A DNA stretch of 64,000 bases, from positions 61,591,726-61,655,725 of the forward strand of contig NC_090388.1 of assembly GCF_036365525.1 (NCBI RefSeq), in the 5' to 3' direction. A model generated the notes under the pieces. The model worked only from the letters and a program-made list of their open reading frames with translations, was not told the DNA's origin and ran no database searches. The DNA is from Heterodontus francisci. Its lineage: Eukaryota. The position numbers and the translations under genes were made by a program. This document shows, one piece after another, positions 2,943 through 54,300 of this stretch; positions within the stretch are counted from its first letter, which is position 1; every line of letters begins with the position of its first letter.

Positions 2943-3867
2943 AAGTCCATTGTCTTACCACAGAGAAAATGCAGTGAGACTTGATCATTTCTTCCTCTTC
3001 TAACTCCTTGCCACCTGAATTATGATTTCCAGGAATTGGGGAATAAAATGTCCAACATGTCATAAAAATACATTTATGATACGAAGTGGCATAATTGTGT
3101 TCACAGCAGGATCCACAAACCTAAGATGTATCACCGTACAAATTAGAGCAGTATCACACCATCATCTGTTGACATGCCCTTAAACACAATGCAATGCTTA
3201 GTGTCGTATTTGACAGACATTGTAAAAAACGATTTGGGACATAACCATATCCTTGGGCTGCATAAAGTAAATGGAATTTACAAGTAAAAGCAAATGTGCT
3301 ATTCTATCACACTGAAATGCCTAAAGCTCCAAAAGAAAAAAAATCCTGCCTTGGTTTGGATGCAAGACTGCCATTTATATTGCCCTTGCAGGTGTACACA
3401 ACATTACCAGAAAAACAGCAAATAAAAGCAGCACCTTGGTTTTCTCCCTGATCCATGTTACTGGCTTCCCTCTGTATCTAAGGCTGTAGTTATACTGCAA
3501 CTACCAGTTCAAGAGGCCTGTTCAGCAGACTGGCCTTAGTATGACTGTTGCTGAAGTGGAGCAAGAGTACAGCTCTGCACATGTTTGCTTCCACACATGT
3601 GCAGAGTTCCATTCCCAGTAACTAATAGTTAATGTTATTGAGCATGTAACATTTTTTTTTAAATCCATTCGATGTTTTAAAAGTTTCATTGGTCCAGCTG
3701 GGCAACCTTAAAATGGGCCTTTGCACAGAGCTGAAGGTACACCAATGTCAGTGTGAACTTGAAGCAATGTGAGATGGCCTATTTGATGGGGAGCCATACC
3801 AATTGGCTTCATCTGTGTCAAGTAAATCAAGGTTCATAAGCTTGGACAACCATTACCTCCCTCAAAC

Positions 3868-3950
3868 AAAAGGTAAATACTGCAGATGCTGGAAATCTGA
3901 AACAGAAAATGCTGGAAATATTCAGGTCAGGTAGCATCGGTCATCAGAAC
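3868..3950 (-). mobile_element. Penelope-derived terminal fragment (hammerhead motif largely deleted)
   Basis: Reverse complement reads GTTCTGATGA...GATGCTACCTGACCTG...TTTCCAGCATCTGCAGTATTT, matching 18418-18551 and 32017-32152. Confidence 0.75.
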
Positions 3951-7374: not shown

Positions 7375-7600
7375 GTAATCCCTTTTGTCATTTAATTAGT
7401 CCTGCCCTCTACCCTATCACAAACCTTCCCTATAGTTATCCCCACCTCCTTTTCCTTGATTCTGTACTTGCTTAAAAAATATTATTCTCTAAAACCTTAC
7501 AGTTCTGATGAAAGGTCATTGACTTGAAATGTTAACTGTTTCTTTCTCCACAGATGCTGTCTGACCTGTTGAGTTCCTACACCAATTTCTGTTTTGATTC
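7375..7600 (+). mobile_element. Penelope-like element 3' UTR/terminal fragment
   Basis: Pyrimidine-rich 3' UTR followed by the CTGATGA...GAAA motif and the CACAGATGCTG...CTGACCTG tail shared with 18300-18551. Confidence 0.75.
7499..7539 (+). ncRNA. Minimal hammerhead ribozyme motif (Penelope-associated)
   Basis: ACAGTT-CTGATGA-A-AGGTC(ATT)GACTT-GAAAT-GTT-AACTGT: 6-bp stem I, canonical core, stem II. Confidence 0.65.
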
Positions 7601-8774: not shown

Positions 8775-10048
8775 CTGGAACACCTACTCCCCTTGTCCCA
8801 CCATTGGTGGCTGCGCCTTCAGCTGTCCAGGCCCTAATCTCTGGAATTGCCTCGTTAAACCTCTCTGCCTCTCCATCTGTATCTCTGCCTTTGAGACACA
8901 CCAGGACATCGCTGCAGGAGTTCCTCAGGGTAGTGACCTAGGCCCAACCATCTGCTCCATCAATGACCATCCCTCCAACATAAGGTCAGAAGTGGGAATG
9001 TTCAGTGATGTTTGCAGTGTTCAATACCATTTGAGACTCCTCAGATACAGAAACAGTTTGTGCCAGCATGCAGCAAGATCTGGATAATAGTTAGGCTTGG
9101 GCTGATAAGTGGCAAATAACATTCACACTTCCCAAGTGCCAGGCAATGACAATCTCCAAAGAGAATCTAACCATCTCTCCTTGATGTTCAACAACATTGC
9201 CATTGCTAAATCCCTCACCATCAACATCCTGAGGGTCACCATTGATCAGAAACTTCACTAGACCAGCCACATTAATACTGTGGCTTCATGAGCACGTTCA
9301 GAGGCTGGAAATTCTGCAGTGAGTAACTCATCTCCTGATTACCCAAAGCCTGTCCACCACGCACAAGGCACAAGTCAGGAGTATGATGGCATAATCTCCA
9401 CTTGCCTGGATAAGTGCAAATTCAACAACACTCAAGAAGCTTGACACTATTCAGGACAAAGCAGCCCGCTTGATTGGCACCCCATTCACAACTTTGAACA
9501 CTCACTCAGTCCACCACGAACGCACAGTGGGAGCAGAATGTACCATCTACAAGATGCATTGCAGCAACACACCAAAGCTTCTTCAACAGCACCTTCCAAA
9601 CCCGTGAACTCTACCACCTAGAAGAACAAGGGCAGCAGATGCATGGAAACACCACCACCTGCAAGTACCCCTCCAAGCCACACATCATCCTGACTTGGAA
9701 CTATATCGCCGTTCCTTCACTGTCACTGGGTCAAAAACCTGGAATTCCCTTCTGAATAGCACTGTGGGTGTACTAAACCACATAGACTGCAGCAGTTCAA
9801 GGCAGTGGCTCACCACAACCTTCTCAAGGGCAATTAGTGATGGGCAACAAGTGCTGGCCATGTCAGAGACACTCCATCCATGAAAGAATATTTTTAAAAA
9901 CTACTACTTTGCCCAAGCATTTAATCACCCCTCCCAATATCTGCTTCTTTGGCTTGGTGTCAATTTTAGTCTGATTATGCTCCTGTGAAGTGTCTTGGGA
10001 TGTTTTCCTACATTAAAAGTGATGTTTAAATGCAAGTTGTTGTTGTTG
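8775..10048 (+). mobile_element. L2 LINE 3' end, split by a LINE-B insertion (8899-9893)
   Basis: IGGCAFSCPGPNLWN motif before the insertion; after it the tail GTGAAGTGTCTTGGGATG...TAAATGCAAG(TTG)n. Confidence 0.75.
8899..9893 (+). mobile_element. LINE-B (CR1/Jockey-group) 3' fragment, decayed
   Basis: DIAAGVPQGSDLGP..RSEVGMFSD; tail GGGCAATTAG...CATCCATGAA collinear with 20410-21412. Confidence 0.9.
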
Positions 10049-10821: not shown

Positions 10822-10957
10822 CAGTTCTGATGAAAGGTCAAGGTCCTGAAACATTAACTCTGTTTCTTTCTTCACATATACTGCCTGACCTACTAGTGTT
10901 TCCAGCATTTTCTGTTTTCAAATTTCCAGCATCTGCAGTATTTTGTTTTTGTTTTAT
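10822..10957 (+). mobile_element. Short Penelope-derived terminal unit with degenerate hammerhead motif
   Basis: CAGTT-CTGATGA-AAGGTCAAGGTCCT-GAAAC-ATT-AACTC followed by the CCAGCATCTGCAGTATTTTG tail. Confidence 0.8.
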
Positions 10958-15564: not shown

Positions 15565-17865
15565 ATGTGTATAAAAGTGAACGGAATGAGAAAAATCAAG
15601 TAGTGGTTTGGAGATGTCTGACATGGCTTTCAAAAAAGCTGTAGGTTGCAGAAGATAGCCAAGAATGAGGTTAGAAATCCAGGCCGCAAGATTGGGTTCC
15701 ATAACACCTGTAGTTTTGGCTCCACAGGTGCCATTTTTGTACCAACATGGTGTCCATGCTGCTTGCGCTCACTTCCATTGTGGCCCATACCAAGCATCAC
15801 CTTGGTGAGGGTGTTAGCATGGGCATTAGAAGTGTGTGCTGGAAAAATGCAAAGTAGATAGATCGTTACATCAGTCAGTGTGTAATGCTGATTTGATGCC
15901 AGCACTGCCATTTTTGATCTTGCCGCTATAGGTAAAGTCCTCTCTTAATCTCGCACAGCTGAACATACGAATTAGGGGCAGGAGTAGGCCACTCGGCCCC
16001 TCGAGCCTGCTCCGCCATTCAATAAGTTTATGGCTGAACTGATTACTCCACATCACCACCTACCCCCGATAACTTTCACCCCCTTGCTTATCAAGAATCT
16101 ATCTACCTCTGCCTTAAAAATATTCAAAGACTCTGCTTCCACCACCTTCTAAGGAAGAGAGTTCCAAAGACTCACGACCCTCTGAGAAAAAACATTTCTC
16201 CTCATCTGTCTTAAACGGGCAACCCCTTATTTTTAAACAGTGACCCCTGGTTCTAGATTCTCCCACAAGGGGAAACATCCATTCAACATCCACCCTATCA
16301 AGACCCCTCAGGATCTTATATGTTTCAATCAAGTCGCCTCTTACTCTTCTAAATTCCAGCGGATACAAGCCTAGCCTGTCCAATCTTTCCTCGTAAGATA
16401 GCCCACCCATTCCAGGTATTAGTCTAGTAAACCTAATCTGAACGGCTTCCAATGCATTTACGTCTTTCCTTAAATAAGGAGATCAATACTGTACACAGCA
16501 CTCCAGATGTGGTCTCACCAATGCCCTTTGTAGCTGAAGCATAACCTCCCTACTTTTGTATTCAATTACCCTCACAATAAACGATAACATTCTATTAGCT
16601 TTCCTAATTACGTGCTGTACCTGCATACTAACCTTTTGCGATTCATGCACTAGGACACCCAGATCCCTCTGCAACTCAGAGCTCTGCAATCTCTCACCAT
16701 TTAGATAATATGCTTCTTTGTTATTCTTCCTGCCAAAATGGACAACTTTGCATTTTCCCACATCATATTCCATCTGCCAGGTCTTTGCCCATTCACTTAA
16801 CCTATCTATATTGCTTTGTAGTCTCCTTATGTCCTCTTCACAACCTACTTTCCTACCTATCTTTGTGTCATCAGCAAATTTAGCAACCATGCCTTTGGTC
16901 CCTTTATCTAAGTCATTTATATAAATTGTAAAAAGTTGAGGCCCAGCACAGATCCCTGTGGCACACCACTCGTTACGTTTTGCCAACTGGAAAATGACCC
17001 ATTTATGCCTATTCTCTGTTTCCTGTCAGCGAGCCAATCATCTATCCATTTCTAGTATGTTACACCCTACACCGTGAGCTTTTATTTTTTGCAATAACCT
17101 TTGATGTGGCATCTTATCAAATGCCTTCTGGGAATCTAAGTACAATACATCCACAGGTTCCCCTTCATCCACAGCACATGTAACTCCCTCAAAGAATTCC
17201 AATAAATTGGTTAAGCATGATTTCCCTTTCATAAAACCATGTTGACTCTGCCTGATTACCTTCAATTTTTCTAAGTGCCTGCTATAACGTCTTTAATAAT
17301 AGCTTCTAACATTTTCCCTAAGACAGATGCTAAGCTAACTGGCCTGTTTTCTGTTTCTCCCTTTTTGGATAAAGGAGCTACATTTACTATTTTCCAGTCT
17401 AGTGGAACCTTCCCCGAATCTAGGGAATTTTGGAAAATTAAAACTAATGCATCAACTATCTCACTAGCCACTTCTTTTAGGACCCTAGGAGGAAGTCCAT
17501 CAGGACCCGGGGTCTTGTCAGCCCGCAGCTCCAACAATTTGTTCAGTACCACTTCCCTGGTGATTGTAATTTTCTTGAGTTCCTCCCTCTCTTCCACTTC
17601 CTAACTTAAAGCTAATTCTGGGATGTTACTTGTATCCTTTATAGTGAAGACCGATGCAAAATATCTGTTCAATTCATCTGTCATCTCCTTATTATTCATT
17701 ATTAATTCCTCAGACTCACTTTCTATAGGACCAAGGCTCACTTTATTAACTTTTCTTTTTAAAATATCCATAGAAACTCTTACTATCTGTCTTTATATTT
17801 CTAGCTAGCTTTCTCTCGTACCCTAATTTTATCTTCCTTAGCAATCTTTTGGTCAATCTTTACTG

Positions 17866-18551
17866 TTGCCATTTCAACACTCCCCCCTGCTCTCATGCTC
17901 ACATCTCTGTCCTGGGATTGCTGCAGTGTTCCAGTGAACATCAACGCAAGCTCGAGGAACAGCATCTCATCTACCGATTAGGCACACTACAGCCTGCCGG
18001 ACTGAACATTGAGTTCAATAATTTCAGAGCATGACAGCCCCCCACTTTACTTTCATTTTTAGTCATTTTTAGTTATTTTTTCTTCCTTTTTTTTTTTGCA
18101 TTCCTTTTTACATTTTTTACAATCTTTTTTTGCATTTATTTCATTTCATCTTAGTTTGTTCAGTTTGCTTACCCACTGTTTTTTTCAGGTTGTTTTTCTT
18201 CAGGTTTGCACTTGCTGATGTTCAATATTCAGTATATTCACACCTAATCTGTACTGATGCTTTGTCTTTCAACACACCATTAACATATTGTTTGCCTTTG
18301 CTCCGTGACCTTTTGGTCAGCTATGTGGCCTGGTCCAATCTGCACCTTCTCCTTTGTTATCTCTTGCCCAACCCCCACCTCACTTGTTTATAATCTGTGA
18401 CTTTTCTAATATTTGTCAGTTCCGAAGAAGGGTCACTGACCCGAAACGTTAACTCTGCTTCTCTTTCCACAGATGCTGCCAGACCTGCTGAGTGAATCCA
18501 GCATTTCTTGTTTTTGTTTCAGATTTCCAGCATCCGCAGTATTTTGCTTTT
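17866..18551 (+). mobile_element. Penelope-like element: GIY-YIG endonuclease C-terminus, 3' UTR and hammerhead-bearing terminus
   Basis: HFN..H....VLGL......RKLEEQHLIYRLGTLQPAGLNIEF* is the typical PLE GIY-YIG C-terminal pattern; T-rich UTR; terminal unit shared with six other loci. Confidence 0.9.
18418..18454 (+). ncRNA. Minimal hammerhead ribozyme motif
   Basis: AGTT-CCGAAGA-A-GGGTC(ACT)GACCC-GAAAC-GTT-AACT: perfect stem II, palindromic AACGTT stem III, U4C core variant. Confidence 0.65.
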
Positions 18552-19746
18552 GCTTCTACATCCTGGTTTCCTGAACTTAGATCATCCCTCTCTATTGTGC
18601 GAATACCATCATTAATTAACAGAGCCACCCCTCCACCTTTTCCTAGCTTCCTGTCCTTCCTAAATGCCATGTACCCTTCAATATTCAGGTCCCAATCCAT
18701 GTCATCCTGTGGTCATGTCTCTGTAATGGCTATTGTAATCGGATTGTACATATTTATTTCTATTTGTGCTCTCAGTTCATCTGTTTTGCTTTAAATGCTA
18801 CGTGCATTCTGATACAGAGCCTTTAGTTTTGTCCTTTAATTATTTTTGTAACCTCTAGCCTTATCTGTTGATTTTCTCTTAGATGTGCATGCTCTGTCCC
18901 TTCCTGTCACAGTCTGATTATCATTTCCCATATTAATACCTTTCTCTCTTGCCTTGTCTCTTCTCCTTGATTTACCATATCTTCCCAAATTTGATCCCTT
19001 GTCCATGCATTCAGCAGCAGGAAGGACCCTTTCCACCAGTGCTATTTAAAGTGATAATCAACAATATGCATGATAGCTGCTGATCACTTTCTACTGACTC
19101 TGTTTGAATTTGTGGCAGTGCTGGGTGTTTTGAGGAGTTGGTTACAGGTGGTCAAGTCTACAGTGAGTGGTGCTGCACGTGGAGAATGCTTTGCTTGTGA
19201 CTGAAAAAGCTCTGGGTTGTAACAGCAGTCCCTCTTATGTTGCAGCATGTGAAGGAGATGGTACAGAAGCAGCAAATAAGAGGACAAGCTGCTCGAATAG
19301 GGAGAAGGAGAGGGGTAGAGGGCTCTCAGCAGGAGGCCTTATCTGCCCAGGGTCTTTCAAGAGCACTTCTCTTACCTCCACCTAAGCCAGGAGCAGTGTG
19401 TGCATTGTCTGCAATTCACAAAGGAGGTGAACACAAAACTTTGCCACCTTTTGGAACCAGACCTACAGCCTCAGCACAGGGCAAGGATAGTGCTGCCAGT
19501 CACTGTGAAAGTGACCATGGCCCTGAATTTCTTTGCGTCAGAATCCTTCCAGGCTGGAATAGCCAACATATCTAACACTTCCCAGTTCACTATCCATTGC
19601 TGCATCAGAGAGGTGACGGAGGTGTTGTCTGCCAGGAGAGGGGAGTCTATTGTGTTCTCTCTGAACAGAGAGAAGCAGGCGACGTGTGATTTGGTTTTGC
19701 CAGGATAGTGGGCTTCCCCACACTGCAGGGTGCCATTGACTGCACA

Positions 19747-21412
19747 GTTGATGATCCATCTCGGCCCCCTCCTGAAGTCCCCAGCATTACAGATGCCAGA
19801 CTTCAGCCAATTTGATTCACTCCGCGTGATATCAAAAAACGACTGAAGGCACTGGACACTGCAAAGGCTATGGGTCCTGACAATATTCCAGCAATAATAC
19901 TGAAGACCTATGCTCCACACCTTACCGCGCCCCTAGCCAAGCTGATCCAGTACAGCTACAACACTGGCATCTACCCAGCAATGTGGAAAATTGCCGAGGT
20001 ATGTCCTGTACACAAAAAGCAGGACAAGTCCAACCCGGCCAATTACCGCCCCATCAGTCTACTCTTAATCATCAGCAAAGTGATGGAAGGTGTCATCAAC
20101 AGTGCCATCAAGCGGCACTTGCTTAGCAATAACCTGCTCAGTGATGCTCAGTTTGGGTTCCGACAAGGCCAATCAGCTCCTGACCTCATTACAACCTTGG
20201 TTCAAACATGGACAAAAGAGCTGAACTCAAGAGGTGAGGTGAAAGTGACTGCCCTTGACATCAAGGCAGCGTTTGACCGAGTATGGCATCAAGGAGCCCG
20301 AGCAAAACTGGAGTCAATGGGAATCAGGCGGAAAACTCTCTGCTGGTTGGAGTCATACCTAGCACAAAGAAAGATGGCTGTGGTTGTTGGAGGTCAATCA
20401 TCTGAGCTCCAGGACATCACTGCAGTAGTTCCTTGGGGTAGTGTCCTAGGCCTAACCATCTTCAGCTGCTTCATCAATGACCTTCCTTCAATCATAAGGT
20501 CAGAAGTGGGGATGTTCGCTGATGATTGCACAATGTTCAGCACCATCGCAACTCCTCAATTACTGAAGCAGTCCGTGTAGAAATGCAGCAAGACCTGGAC
20601 AATATCCAGGCTTGGGCTGATAAGTGGCAAGTAACATTTGCGCCACACAAGTGCCAGGCAATGACCATATCCAATAAGAGAGAATCTAACCATCTCCCCT
20701 TGACATTCAATGGCATTACCATCGCTGAATCCCCCACTATCAACATCCTAGGGGTGACCATTGACCAGAAACTGAACTGGAGTAGCCATGTAAATACCGT
20801 GGCTACAAGAGCAGGTCAGAGGCGAGGACTCCTGCGGCGAGTAACTCACCTCCTAACTCCCCAAAGCCTGTCCACCATCTACAAGGCACAGATCAGGAGT
20901 GTGATGGAATACTCTCCACTTACCTGGATGGGTGCAGCTCCAACAACACTCAAGAAGCTCGACACCATCCAGGACAAAGCAGCCCACTTGATTGTCACCC
21001 CATCCACAAACATTCACTCCCTCCACCATCGACGTACAGTGGCAGCAGTGTGTACCAACTACAAGATGCACTGCAGCAACGCACCAAGGCTCCTTAGACA
21101 GCACCTTCCAAACCCGTGACCTCTACCAACTAGAAGGACAAGAGCAGCAGATGCACGGGAACATCACCACCTGCAAGTTCCCGTCCAAGTCACACACCAT
21201 CCTGACTTGGAACTATATCGCCGTTCCTTCACTGTCGCTGGGTCAAAATCCTGGAACTCCCTTCCTAACAGCACTGTGGGTGTACCTACCCCACATGGAC
21301 TGCAGCGATTCAAGAAGACAGCTCACCACCACCTTCTCAAGGGCAATTAGGGATGGGCTATAAATGCTGGCCTAGCCAGCGACGCCCACATCCCATGAAT
21401 GAATTTTAAAAA
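19747..21412 (+). mobile_element. LINE-B (CR1/Jockey-group) RT region, 5'-truncated, young
   Basis: ORFs 19870-20580 and 20526-21119: GPDNIP, NYRPISLL, QFGFR, LDIKAAFDRVWH, MFADD, IRSVMEY; tail CCACATCCCATGAATGAAT. Confidence 0.95.
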
Positions 21413-26297: not shown

Positions 26298-26433
26298 ATT
26301 TTCTGATGAAAGATCATCGATCTGAAACATAATCTTAGTTTCCCTCTTCACAGAAGCTGCCTGATCTGCTGAGCGTTTGCAGCATTTTCTGTTTTTAATT
26401 CAAATTTCCATTATCTGCAGTATCCTGCTTTTC
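26298..26433 (+). mobile_element. Short Penelope-derived terminal unit with hammerhead core
   Basis: CTGATGA-A-AGATC(ATC)GATCT-GAAAC then CACAGAAGCTGCCTGATCTGCTGAG..ATCTGCAGTAT. Confidence 0.8.
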
Positions 26434-26723
26434 CTTCATTTTTCTTATCGTTTCCAAACTTTCCCATGGGAAATTTCACGTTGGAACCCATGTATTGCCT
26501 CATTAGCACAAATGTCTTCAACCATTGTGGTCCCTGAGTTTTGCCAAATGGTTTGTCAGGTGACAGGGGCATGTTTTACCAGACAATGATGCAAGGCCAG
26601 GCTTATCAAGGTCAGCTGACACAAAGACAATGAAAAGTGATACATCGGTGCAATTGGAACACTTCCATTTTGGGATTAAAACACACATGTGCACATGTGA
26701 ACTCAATACTCATATCTGCATGG

Positions 26724-31816: not shown

Positions 31817-32017
31817 CGAGCACATAAACCGAGCTGACACTCCACTCCCGCACTGAGAGTGCTGCACTGTCAAAGGTGCTACCTTTCGGATGAAAAATTA
31901 AAATGACGCCCTTGCAGGTGGATATGAAAGATTCCATGGCACTATTGGATCTATATGAAGATGAGTGGGGGAGTTCTCCCAATTATAACCCTCAACCAAC
32001 ATTACTAAACCAAATGA

Positions 32018-32152
32018 GTTCTGATGAAGGGTCACTGACCTGAAAAGTTAACTCTGCTTCTCTCTCCACAGATGCTGCCAGACCTGCTGCGTATTTCCAG
32101 CATTTTTTTGTTTTTATTTTGGATTCCAGCATCTGCAGTATCTTGCTTTTAT
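32018..32152 (+). mobile_element. Stand-alone ~135-bp Penelope-derived hammerhead unit with 17-bp TSD
   Basis: TSD ATTACTAAACCAAATGA at 32001-32017 and 32153-32169; (GA)GTT-CTGATGA-A-GGGTC(ACT)GACCT-GAAAA-GTT-AACTC. Confidence 0.9.
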
Positions 32153-51302: not shown

Positions 51303-54300
51303 ATTCATTCTGGGGATATGTGCGCACCTGAAAAGCTGACACTCATTGCCCATCCCTAGTTGCCCTGAGAAAGTGGGGGTGGGATGCCTTTTTGAACTCC
51401 TGCAGTTCATGTGATGAAGCTACTCCCACAATGATGTTAGATAGGGAGTTCCAGGAATTTGACCCAGCGATGAAGAAGGAACAGCAATATATGTCCAATT
51501 TGGGGTGGTGTGAGACTTGGAGGGAAACTTGGAGGTGGTGGTAATCCAATGCCCTTGTCCATCTAGGTTGTATAGGTCGAAAGTTTGGGAGGCGCTGTCG
51601 AATCAGCATTGGCAAGTTGCCACAGTGCATTTTGTAGATGGTACACACTGCAGCCATGGTATGCCAGTAGTGGAGGAAGTAGATGTTTAAGGTGGGCTGC
51701 CGATCAAGTAGACTATTTTGTCCTGGATGATGTCGAGCTTCTTGAGTGTTATTGCAGTTACATTCATTCATGCAAGTGGAGAGTATTCTATCATACTCCT
51801 GACTTGTGAGTTGTAGAAAGAAGATGGACAGGCTTTGGGAGTCAGGAGGTGAGATACTTTCTGCAAAATATCTAGCCTCTGACCTGCTGTAGTAGCCACA
51901 GTAATTTTTTTATTCATTCATGGGATGTGGGCATCGCTGTCTAGGCCAGCATTTATTGTCCATCCCTAATTGCCCTTGAGAAGGTGGTGGTGAGCTGCCT
52001 TCTTGAATCGCTGCAGTCCATGGGAGGTAGGTGCACCCATAGTGCTGTTAGGAAGGGAGTTCCAGGATTTTGACCCAGCGGCAGTGAAGGAACGGCAATA
52101 TAGTTCCAAGTCAAGATGGTGTGTGACTTGGAGGAGAACTTGCAGGTGGTGGTGTTCCCATGCATTTGTTGCCCTTGTCCTTCTAGTTGGTAGAGGTCGC
52201 GGGTTTGGAAGGTGCTGTCTAGGGAGCCTTAGTGCATTGCTGCTGTGCATCTTGTAGATGGTACACACTGCTGCCATTGTGCGTCAGTGGTGGAGGGAGT
52301 GAATGTTTGTGGATGGGGTGCCAATCAAGCGGGTTGCTTTGTCCTGGATGGTGTCAAGCTTCTTGAGTGTTGTCGGAGCTGCACCCATCCAGGCAAGTGG
52401 AGAGTATTCCATCACACTCCTGACTTGTGCCTTGTAGATGGTGGACAGGCTCTGGGGAGTCAGCAGGTGAGTTACTCGCCGTAGGATTCCTAGCCTCTGA
52501 GCTGCTGTTGTAGCCACGATATTTATATAGCAACTCCAATTCAGTTTCTGGTCAATGGTAGCCCCTAGGATGTTGATAATGGGGGATTCATCGATGGTAA
52601 TGCCATTGAATGTCAAGGGGAGATGGTTAGATTCTCTCTTATTGGAGATGGTCATTGGCTGGCACTTGTGTGGCGCGAATGTTACTTGCCACTCATCAGC
52701 CCAAGCCTGAATATTGTCCAGGTCCTGCCGCATTTCTACACGGACTGCTTCAGTATCTGAGGAGTCGCGAACGGTACTGAACATTGTGCAATCATCAGCA
52801 AATATCCCCACTTCTGACCTTATGATTGAAGGAAGGTCATTGATGAAGCAGCTGAAGATGATTGGGCCTAGGACACTACCCTGAGGAACTACTGCAGTGA
52901 TGTCCTGGAGCTGAGATGATTGACCTCCAACAACCACAACCATCGTCCTTTGCGCGAGGTATGACTCCAACCAGCAGAGAGTTTTCCCCCTGATTCCCAT
53001 TGACTTCAGTTTTGCTAGGGCTCCTTGATGCCATACTCGGTCAATTGCTGCCTTGATGTCAAGGATGACTCTGACCTTGATGACTCTGACCTCACCTCTT
53101 GAGTTCAGCTCTTTTGTCCATGTTTGAACCAAGGCTGTAATGAGGTTAGGAACTGAGTGTTACTGAGCAGGTTATTGCTAAGCAAGTGCCGCATGATGGC
53201 ACTGTTGATGACACCTTCCATCACTTTACTGATAATTGAGAGTAGGCAGATGGGGGTGGTAATTGGCCGGGTTGGACTTGTCCTGCTTTTTGTATACAGG
53301 ACATACATAGGCAATTTTCCACATTACAGGGTAGATGCCAGTGCTGTAGCTGTACTGAAACAGCTTGGCTAGGGGCACAGCAAGTTCTGGAACACAGGTC
53401 TTCAGTACTATTACCGGAATATTGTCAGGGCCCATAGCCTTTGCAGTATCCAATGCCTTCAGTCATTTCTTGATATCACACGGAGTGAATTGAATTGGCT
53501 GAAGTCTGGCATCTGTGATGCTGGGGACTTCAGGAGGAGGCCGAGATGGATCATCAACTTGGCACTTCTGGCTGAAGATTGTTGCAAATGCTTCAGCCTT
53601 ATCTTTCGCGCTGATGTGCTGGGCTCCCCCATCATTGAGGATGGGGATATATGTGGAGCCACCCTCAGTGCTTCCTCCAAGTGGTGTTCAACATGGAGCA
53701 GTACTGACTCATTAGCTGAGGGAGGGTGGTAGATGGTAATCAGCAGGAGGTTTCCTTGCCCATGTTTGACCTGATGCCATGAGACTTCATGGGGTCTGGA
53801 GTCGATGTTGAGGACTCCCAGGGCAACTCCCTCCCTACTGTATACCATTGTGCCGCCACCTCTGCTGGGTCTGTCCTGCCGGTGTGACAGGACATACCCG
53901 GGGATGGTGATGGCAGTGTCTGGGACATTGTCAGGTATGATTCCTTGAGTATGACTATATCAGGCTGTTGCTTGACTGGGACAGTTCTCATAACTTTGGC
54001 ACAAGCCACCAGATGTTAGTAAGGAGGACTTTGCAGGGTCGACAGGGCTGGGTTTGCCGTTGTCGTTTCCGGTACCTAGATCGATGCCGTCCTGTTTCAT
54101 TCTTTTTTATTGACTTTGTAGCGGTTAGATACAACTGAGTGGCTTGCTAGGCCATTTGAGAGGGCATTTAAGAGTCAACCACATAGCTGTGAGTCTGGTG
54201 TCACATGTAGGCTAGACCAGGTAAGGACAGCAGATTTCCTTCTCTAAAGGACATTAGTGAACCAAATGGGTTTTTACAACAATCGACAATGATTTCATGG

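What the first reader, a model, noticed from the sequence alone, without database searches (positions are those of the whole stretch)
18418..18454. Minimal, probably dimer-dependent hammerhead ribozyme at the Penelope terminus
Seen: stem I AGUU/AACU, core CCGAAGA (CUGAUGA in the other copies), an extra A, stem II GGGUC-ACU-GACCC, GAAAC, then GUU. This lies ~390 nt downstream of the GIY-YIG stop, which ties the window's short repeats to a PLE. Established: PLE terminal repeats encode minimal type I hammerheads, an extra A after A9 is tolerated in natural hammerheads, and loop-less palindromic stem III implies cleavage as a dimer. Inference: predicted cleavage after GUU at 18450 via AACGUU pairing between two copies.
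Basis: partly seen in the sequence, partly recalled or inferred. Interest (0 to 1): 0.7.

Follow-up and report, generated by a model that had tools for sequence, protein, structure and literature searches.

The report
Penelope hammerhead with altered catalytic core
This is a real copy of the tiny self-cutting-RNA motif already known from Penelope-type jumping genes, with one normally fixed core letter changed throughout the youngest, very abundant lineage; the family's short genomic copies begin at the motif's front edge rather than at its predicted cut, so it likely cuts slowly or rarely and most copying likely uses uncut RNA.

Summary
The motif is exactly as described: a loop-less type I hammerhead 384 nt after the GIY-YIG stop of a 5'-truncated, very young Penelope-like element. 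Intact 924-aa tandem parents exist. Such motifs have been in print since 2014.

Three refinements:
1. The U4C core is not private decay: 23,220 exact copies exist. It is the youngest state of a lineage whose first stem-II pair went A-U, G-U, G-C.
2. Copy 5' ends pile up at the motif's front edge (36 of 69 within 7 nt), 29 nt behind a TATA-like box, often after a G. None of 89 starts at the predicted cut, and genome-wide tests show no excess there in young or older subfamilies.
3. Copies longer than one unit run straight through (2 of 41 stop).

The active dimer would pair 4 bp (ACGU); 6-bp AACGUU is an inactive register. This copy has no intact tandem partner.

Likely reading: the motif heads the capped transcript, cuts weakly, and is not needed for most copying. 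Cleavage is untested. The scan's AI notes reported the same pattern before, in this and other genomes.

The parts
17866..18551 (+). 5'-truncated copy of a very young Penelope-like element (ORF end, 3' UTR, pLTR)
   Evidence: 98-100% identical over 652-691 nt to all 40 scored genome matches; ends mapped against other copies; 3 mismatches and 16 gap columns against an intact tandem unit
17866..18034 (+). C-terminal remnant of the RT/GIY-YIG ORF, stop TGA at 18032-18034
   Evidence: translation matches the end of intact 924-aa ORFs; the full ORF hits RVT_1 (E 5e-5) and GIY-YIG (E 0.002), both below Pfam's curated cut-offs; the 55-aa remnant alone hits nothing
18389..18394 (+). TATA-like TATAAT, 29 nt before 18418 (function inferred)
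   Evidence: of 8 printed older long copies, 3 have TTAAAA, 1 TAAAA and 4 weaker variants there; promoter consensus recalled
18397..18407 (+). Stretch predicted to pair with 18425-18435 and sequester the core in read-through RNA; young subfamily only
   Evidence: stem II probability 0.61-0.90 when RNA starts at -1/+1, <0.1 with 10 or more upstream nt; not seen in one older copy (0.47-0.78)
18416..18422 (+). Initiator-like TCAGTTC; 18418 is the inferred RNA start (+1), where copy 5' ends peak
   Evidence: initiator consensus YYANWYY recalled
18418..18454 (+). Minimal loop-less type I hammerhead with U4C core, extra A, 5-bp stem II and GUU triplet; predicted cut 18450|18451
18455..18551 (+). pLTR tail; family 3' ends cluster at +97..+112 and +135..+148, likely two reverse-transcription start sites
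   Evidence: 48 and 48 of 97 copies; two RT start sites shown in vitro for PAc
7501..7595 (+). Older-subfamily copy (U4, A10.1-U11.1), still passes the descriptor
10823..10954 (+). Older, decayed copy (stem II broken)
26299..26437 (+). Older short copy starting at about +3
32017..32150 (+). Intermediate-age short copy (U4, G-U pair) starting exactly at +1 after a G

Best explanation
The motif is a minimal type I hammerhead in the terminal repeat of a young Penelope-like retrotransposon, carrying a U4-to-C core change fixed in the youngest subfamily; it likely forms the first 37 nt of the capped transcript, likely cuts only slowly (as a dimer or with the element's protein), and is likely not needed for most copying. 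Shown: the anatomy, intact tandem parents (3,290-nt unit, 924-aa ORF), the subfamily succession, 5' ends piled at the front edge, and no excess at the cut. Inferred: transcription starts at 18418 behind a TATA-like box. Reverse transcription starts in the tail about 100 or 137 nt in and, in about 60% of sampled copies, runs off the uncut 5' end to give 100-140-nt stubs. The rest continue upstream into a seamless previous unit, most likely because the cDNA jumps to the second pLTR of the same RNA through the terminal redundancy. The window copy is one of these longer, later truncated products. Residual cutting after 18450 would remove the cap of the first pLTR or the priming region of the second, so it would dampen rather than drive copying.
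For: Anatomy matches published PLE min-HHRs.
Subfamily classes by divergence from their own majority: U4/A-U 7.9% (66 copies), U4/G-U 5.6-5.7% (11), C4/G-C 1.2% and 0.2% (99 and 7), out of 204 copies covering +5..+95 (targeted sampling, so these are not proportions).
U4 is not CpG decay: CTG 46, CCG 52, CCA 2 in the first 100 of 87,164 matches (hand tally).
Four of 5 old-to-young changes are structure-neutral or compensatory; simulation P=0.046.
5' ends among 97 de-duplicated tail-anchored copies: 36 of 69 at risk stop at -2..+4, 55 of 88 at -2..+19, 0 of 89 at +31..+37; solo copies alone 19 of 36 and 0 of 46. Older copies peak at the same place.
Base before a +1 start: G 49, A 24, T 27 (first 100 of 5,048) against G 9, A 59, C 32 before +5 (first 100 of 1,096); G:A Fisher p=3e-11.
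Cut-site test: young 714 matches with 5 of 30 true breaks against control +38 with 463 and 9 of 30; older 1,241 with 9 of 30 against 1,431 with 8 of 30.
Copies built as [+1..+211][+1..], [+1..+1189][+1..] and [+2..+244][+1..] show template jumps at +1.
Print: min-HHR monomers inactive and dimers weak; PAc HHR is protein-assisted, not needed for insertion in vitro, and no reads end at its cut; U4C lowers in vitro activity yet supports viroid infectivity.
Against: No cleavage, cap or start site was measured; only Logan contigs of guessed-RNA runs were available.
The extra G is only suggestive: of 14 G loci inspected, 5 are inverted junctions and 3 could take the G from the target site; 6 of 30 loci with T are a subfamily variant, not breakpoints.
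A simple jump model does not by itself predict that only 2 of 41 long copies stop at the edge, against 55 of 88 tail-anchored ones (p=1e-10; tandem junctions counted singly, so not fully independent). A circular template predicts that directly.
One long copy (L242) starts at +34, and 7 of 109 incidental copies classed as older start at +31..+35; the matched test did not confirm an excess.
Samples are the first listed matches on contigs C1-C2, not random draws, and both halves of inverted pairs were counted.
Nearest-neighbour energies disfavour the active dimer (-13.7 against -17.5 for two monomers and -24.8 for an inactive duplex), which fits 'dead' as well as 'slow'.
Confidence: 0.55

Rival explanations
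1. Efficient dimer cleavage drives replication (first reader; Cervera model). Successive hammerheads cut a tandem transcript at +33|+34, the 3,290-nt monomer is ligated into a circle, and reverse transcription round the circle makes the long, more-than-unit copies. Stubs come from uncut capped RNA.
For: Long copies pass the motif almost without stopping (1 of 25; 1 of 16) and have seamless junctions. 1,298 exact tail-to-ORF junctions exist, with 2-3-unit arrays. Deleted units repeat with identical junctions (L248, L269, L239). The stems are kept by compensatory change. The model is in print as tentative.
Against: No excess of copies starts at the cut, although linear cut RNA should precede ligation. 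U4C and a GUU triplet are unfavourable (GUC is the usual natural triplet). Read-through context is predicted to sequester the young core. PAc does not need cleavage in vitro.
Confidence: 0.22
2. The C4 motif is catalytically dead. It persists because the same 37 nt serve as initiator/downstream promoter, protein-binding or splice signal, or simply hitch-hike; losing cleavage may have helped the young lineage spread.
For: U4C is fixed in the most amplified subfamily. There is no cut footprint. The active dimer is computed as unfavourable. Naiad PLEs lack hammerheads yet reach very high copy numbers, and the authors suggest HHRs may parasitise PLEs.
Against: The young lineage also gained the canonical G10.1-C11.1 pair through a wobble step and varies at the free N7 position. 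U4C retains in vivo function in a viroid. The neutrality test is marginal (P=0.046), so this rival stays open.
Confidence: 0.18
3. The pile-up of 5' ends at +1 is a reverse-transcriptase stall, microhomology bias or 3' splice-site effect, not a capped start.
For: CAG at 18417-19 with a branch-like CTAAY upstream is kept in old and young copies. The D. virilis intron ends at helix I. TTCCGAA is nearly palindromic.
Against: A stall should hit all templates alike, but long copies pass (2 of 41 stop). Stubs share no upstream exon, and many carry adjacent target-site duplications. Older subfamilies without the near-palindrome peak at the same place. No such splice joint appeared among the joints shown.
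Confidence: 0.05

Closest known systems
Minimal hammerheads (min-HHR) in pLTRs of metazoan Penelope-like elements (Cervera and De la Pena 2014, PMC4209133; read parts 1-3 of 4, no supplements)
   Same: Type I, no loop III, palindromic 15.2-16.2, extra nucleotide between 9 and 10.1, G10.1-C11.1, 4-bp stem I, mostly solo copies of truncated PLEs, predicted dimer.
   Different: C at position 4 (the text read names U3-A8 as its core variant), 5-bp stem II, GUU triplet, tens of thousands of identical copies. No cartilaginous fish is named in the text read.
Poseidon PAc of Anolis carolinensis (Frangieh et al. 2024, PMC11167929; read parts 1-2 of 4)
   Same: Two internal RT start sites near the pLTR-ORF junction, AT-rich targets, uncut RNA as the main template, no reads ending at the HHR cut.
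   Different: In PAc the HHR overlaps the ORF start; here the cut is 139 nt before the ATG. This ORF has the CX4CxxC linker finger of Neptune/Nematis, not Poseidon.
Natural U4C hammerhead of a viroid (as cited in Perreault et al. 2011, PMC3088659; passages and section 8 read)
   Same: Same core substitution; low activity in vitro but viable in vivo.
   Different: That hammerhead has tertiary contacts and a full stem III; this one has neither evident.
Non-LTR retrozymes as PLE derivatives (Li et al. 2026, bioRxiv 10.64898/2026.07.22.740005; part 1 of 5 and passages read)
   Same: Deleted 259-431-nt tandem units of this family carry the hammerhead in each repeat.
   Different: The window copy is a solo truncated PLE end with an ORF remnant, not a tandem retrozyme.
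Penelope of Drosophila virilis (Schostak et al. 2008, PMC2377424; passages read)
   Same: Promoter lies in the pLTR, with an initiator, close to the hammerhead.
   Different: There the start is 46 bp before a 75-bp intron that ends at helix I, with a TATA-less DPE promoter. Here the inferred start coincides with helix I, behind a TATA-like box.

Membership tests
Minimal type I hammerhead of metazoan PLEs | Core CUGANGA ... GAAA ... UH | tested here: not met
   All core positions match except U4, which is C in this copy and its subfamily; older subfamilies meet it. Filed as a variant.
Minimal type I hammerhead of metazoan PLEs | Stems I and II formable; G10.1-C11.1; extra nucleotide after A9 | tested here: met
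   A-U to G-U to G-C at 10.1-11.1 across subfamilies
Minimal type I hammerhead of metazoan PLEs | No loop III; palindromic 15.2-16.2 allowing a dimer | tested here: met
   ACGU; a nested dimer structure can be drawn, computed -13.7 kcal/mol, not the lowest-energy dimer
Minimal type I hammerhead of metazoan PLEs | Located in the pLTR of a PLE | tested here: met
   One motif per 3,290-nt unit in a tandem array with intact ORFs
Minimal type I hammerhead of metazoan PLEs | Site-specific self-cleavage as a dimer | not testable with these tools
   Indirect genomic footprint absent
Endonuclease-positive Penelope-like element | Single ORF with RT then C-terminal GIY-YIG | tested here: met
   924-aa ORF; RVT_1 E 5e-5 and GIY-YIG E 0.002, both under the curated cut-offs; DKG and YIDD motifs visible in the translation
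Endonuclease-positive Penelope-like element | Partial tandems, inverted 5' copies, optional 30-40-bp tail | tested here: met
   48 of 97 copies flagged inverted; 3' ends in two clusters about 37 nt apart
Neptune/Nematis clade | CX2-5CxxC finger in the RT-EN linker | tested here: met
   CX4CxxC at residue 790; criterion from Craig et al. 2021
Neptune/Nematis clade | Placement in the RT phylogeny (Neptune versus Nematis) | not tested
   No reference set fetched
Non-LTR retrozyme | Two or more tandem units, each with a complete HHR, non-coding | tested here: not met
   The window copy is solo with an ORF remnant; other loci of the family look like this

The most novel reading that the evidence does not exclude
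The most successful recent lineage of this Penelope family spread after crippling its own ribozyme (U4C, plus an upstream hairpin that hides the core), and it copies itself by a retrovirus-like route: a short strong-stop cDNA runs off a capped start at the hammerhead's first base and then transfers to the 3' repeat. The tens of thousands of stubs would be failed transfers. The successive U4 and C4 subfamilies would be a natural series for testing whether PLE hammerheads help or restrain their elements.
Probability: 0.3. Interest if true: 0.7.

Novelty: new variant of a known kind. Interest (0 to 1): 0.42.

Why it matters
The function of PLE hammerheads is stated in print to be unclear. This family offers a dated natural series of cores (U4/A-U, U4/G-U, C4/G-C), intact young parents and a large fossil record of template ends. 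The record says templates were uncut and began at the motif's edge, while long copies met no boundary. That turns 'circle versus strand transfer' and 'needed versus dispensable' into direct experiments. The motif class itself is known, so the finding as first stated is not a surprise to a specialist.

Tried and rejected
Rfam at E<=1: no hammerhead hit. PDB sequence search with the ORF: one chance hit, E 0.2.

CpG decay as the source of the U4 copies: rejected (CTG 46 against CCA 2). C4 as private damage: rejected.

Cleavage footprint at +34: not found in young or older copies. A hint was not confirmed. Of the 9 older 'breaks' at +34, three are on inspection a different family or an internal deletion.

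First breakpoint script: it stalled at a poly-T indel (false peak at -291) and did not de-duplicate; replaced, which dropped 7 of 104 anchors as duplicates.

A 96-nt intron joining the upstream ATG (18473) in frame to the ORF, and a splice site at 18419|20: no such joint among the joints shown (15 shown in each; 270 and 2 more not shown). These are contigs of guessed-RNA runs holding at most 0.27 of the words, so this is no evidence either way. Expression, strand and RNA ends could not be read from them.

The upstream anti-core hairpin is not seen in the one older copy folded, so it may be chance.

Lunse et al. 2016 was not held; I saw only its title and a review's summary. Its tables and the supplements of PMC4209133, which I did not open, may already list shark-type or U4C variants. 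Eight paper searches listed no paper on U4C in PLE hammerheads or on cap run-off PLE stubs; the library lacks most subscription journals. No protein homolog search or tree was run.

Full report
Coordinates: +1 is window 18418, the first base of stem I; the predicted cut lies between +33 and +34 (18450|18451).

1. Observation. The sequence is as described. The frame from 17852 gives the C-terminal end of a PLE ORF, with its stop at 18032-34, 384 nt before the motif. A strict descriptor finds 2 motifs in the window and none in 100 shuffles. Rfam finds no hammerhead, and folding z-scores are ordinary. The other four window copies carry CTGATGA and are older.

2. The element. Window 17866-18551 is a 5'-truncated copy of a very young family: all 40 scored matches are 98-100% identical. 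Intact 924-aa ORFs occur singly and in a head-to-tail array with a 3,290-nt unit and one motif per unit. The ORF hits RVT_1 and GIY-YIG below the curated cut-offs and has a CX4CxxC linker, the mark of Neptune/Nematis PLEs. In tandem, the predicted cut is 139 nt before the next ATG. G000 is 6.0 Gb; earlier AI notes call it shark-like, which I did not test.

3. The core. The exact 37-mer occurs 23,220 times. With the core left free the count is 29,589; the first 100 are CCGAAGA 78, CCGATGA 11, CTGAAGA 6, others 5 (hand tally). A looser pattern gives 87,164 matches, with CCG 52, CTG 46 and CCA 2 in the first 100 (hand tally), so U4 is an older subfamily state and not CpG decay. Of 293 copies found in the loci, 204 covered +5..+95. 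Their classes order by divergence as U4/A10.1-U11.1 (7.9%), U4/G-U (5.6-5.7%) and C4/G-C (1.2% and 0.2%); the order in time is inferred from divergence. Between oldest and youngest, five positions differ: N7, one loop base, the compensatory pair, and U4C. Four or more neutral changes out of five arise by chance in 4.6% of simulations, which is modest support for selection on the fold. Perreault et al. state that U4C considerably lowers activity in vitro yet allows viroid infectivity.

4. Dimer. The catalytic dimer swaps stem I and pairs ACGU with ACGU. These energies omit core tertiary contacts. Stem II is probable (0.61-0.90) when the RNA starts at the motif, and below 0.1 with 10 or more upstream bases in the young copy; this was not so in one older copy. 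The window copy has no intact same-strand neighbour nearby.

5. Fossil record of templates. I took the first 100 of 34,440 matches to a tail motif that lies downstream of the cut, fetched them (plus L048) and mapped both ends; 104 anchors gave 97 after de-duplication. At -2..+4, 36 of 69 at-risk copies stop, about 90 times the upstream rate per base; 19 more stop at +5..+19; 0 of 89 stop at +31..+37. Solo copies give 19 of 36 and 0 of 46. The 3' ends form two equal clusters near +100 and +137, like the two RT start sites of PAc. Older copies peak at the same edge. A TATA-like box lies at -29 and an initiator-like sequence at +1 (consensus recalled; the TATA lead came from note e1-8639351). G precedes +1 starts in 49 of 100 listed, against 9 of 100 at +5, as expected from a copied cap (recalled), but 8 of 14 inspected G cases could be templated.

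6. Cut-site test, prompted by notes e1-9129149 and e1-8622036. Young copies: about 119 estimated breaks at +34 (714 x 5/30) against 139 at control +38 (463 x 9/30). Older copies: about 372 against 382. There is no excess, though with 30 loci per class a small one is not excluded. Against this stand one long copy starting at +34 and 7 of 109 incidental copies classed as older at +31..+35, against 0 of 111 young.

7. Long copies behave differently. Of 1,298 tail-to-ORF junctions I mapped 30 and 66 anchors in 60 further loci; 4 of the first 100 listed were not fetched. Among those running through the ORF, 1 of 25 and 1 of 16 stop at -2..+19, against 55 of 88 (p=1e-10). Their templates had no boundary there. 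Some copies show jumps at +1 to internal positions, and some are tandem deleted units of 259-431 nt.

8. Mechanism. Most likely the motif is the capped front of the transcript and cuts weakly. Uncut RNA is copied from tail start sites, running off at +1 or jumping to the 3' repeat to continue upstream (0.55). Rivals are circle formation by efficient cleavage (0.22), which explains section 7 more directly but not section 6; a dead relic (0.18); and a stall or splice artefact (0.05). None of the RNA-level steps was measured: the runs available were contigs.

9. Comparison and novelty. Minimal dimer-type hammerheads in PLE repeats are known, as are protein assistance and dispensability in vitro and retrozyme derivatives, including in a chondrichthyan. 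What differs is the fixed U4C core in the dominant young lineage and the template-end record. Eight searches listed no paper on these; Lunse et al. 2016 and supplements were not seen and may hold such variants. The scan's own unchecked notes already describe the same pattern: 79 in this genome fit my look-up, and 770 overall hold the search words. I reached the U4C, edge pile-up and cap reading before seeing them. They are not independent support. Verdict: new variant of a known kind, interest 0.42.

Noticed in passing
L248:3144-3981, L269:3276-4557, L239:3370-4234, L182:1349-1775, L178:1193-1920: ORF-deleted units of 259-431 nt, each with the hammerhead, some repeated with identical junctions; retrozyme-like derivatives of this family.
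   Followed up: partly
L262:3414-3764, L283:2403-3728, L251:3156-3711, L264:3351-3696: Copies built as [+1..internal ORF position] followed by a second piece starting at +1, suggesting RT template jumps at the RNA 5' end; jump points cluster in the first 160 nt of the ORF.
   Followed up: partly
window 18473-18551: An upstream ATG right after a splice-acceptor-like CAG opens a 30-codon frame. In tandem parents it is in frame with the main ORF but stops before it; a 96-nt GT..AG intron would fuse them. No supporting joint among those shown.
   Followed up: partly
window 18402-18419: TTTCTAAY plus a pyrimidine tract and CAG just before stem I is kept in old and young subfamilies; it resembles a 3' splice site as in D. 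virilis Penelope, and also an initiator.
   Followed up: partly
L385:1470-1510 and L395 near 1470-1500: Two decayed copies of what seems a different hammerhead family on the same tail: U4 core, different stem II with a longer loop, GUC-type triplet.
   Followed up: no
window 15940-17865 and 18552-19000: The element sits inside what looks like an older minus-strand LINE remnant (recalled resemblance, not tested); no target-site duplication is evident at this insertion.
   Followed up: no
window 19741-21411 and 51905-53564: Two LINE-like copies in inverted orientation, 90-94% alike, with a third older copy near 9015-9900.
   Followed up: no
window 3864-3941 (minus strand): Tail-only fragment of the family without the hammerhead.
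   Followed up: no
L039:3553-6330: An inverted pair of young copies inserted in a long tandem repeat (about 36/72-nt period) with open reading frames, possibly a coding repeat exon.
   Followed up: no
G000 C1:235.8-236.1 Mb and C1:22.61-22.65 Mb: Clusters of locally duplicated copies (16 of the first 100 matches) inflate pattern counts.
   Followed up: partly
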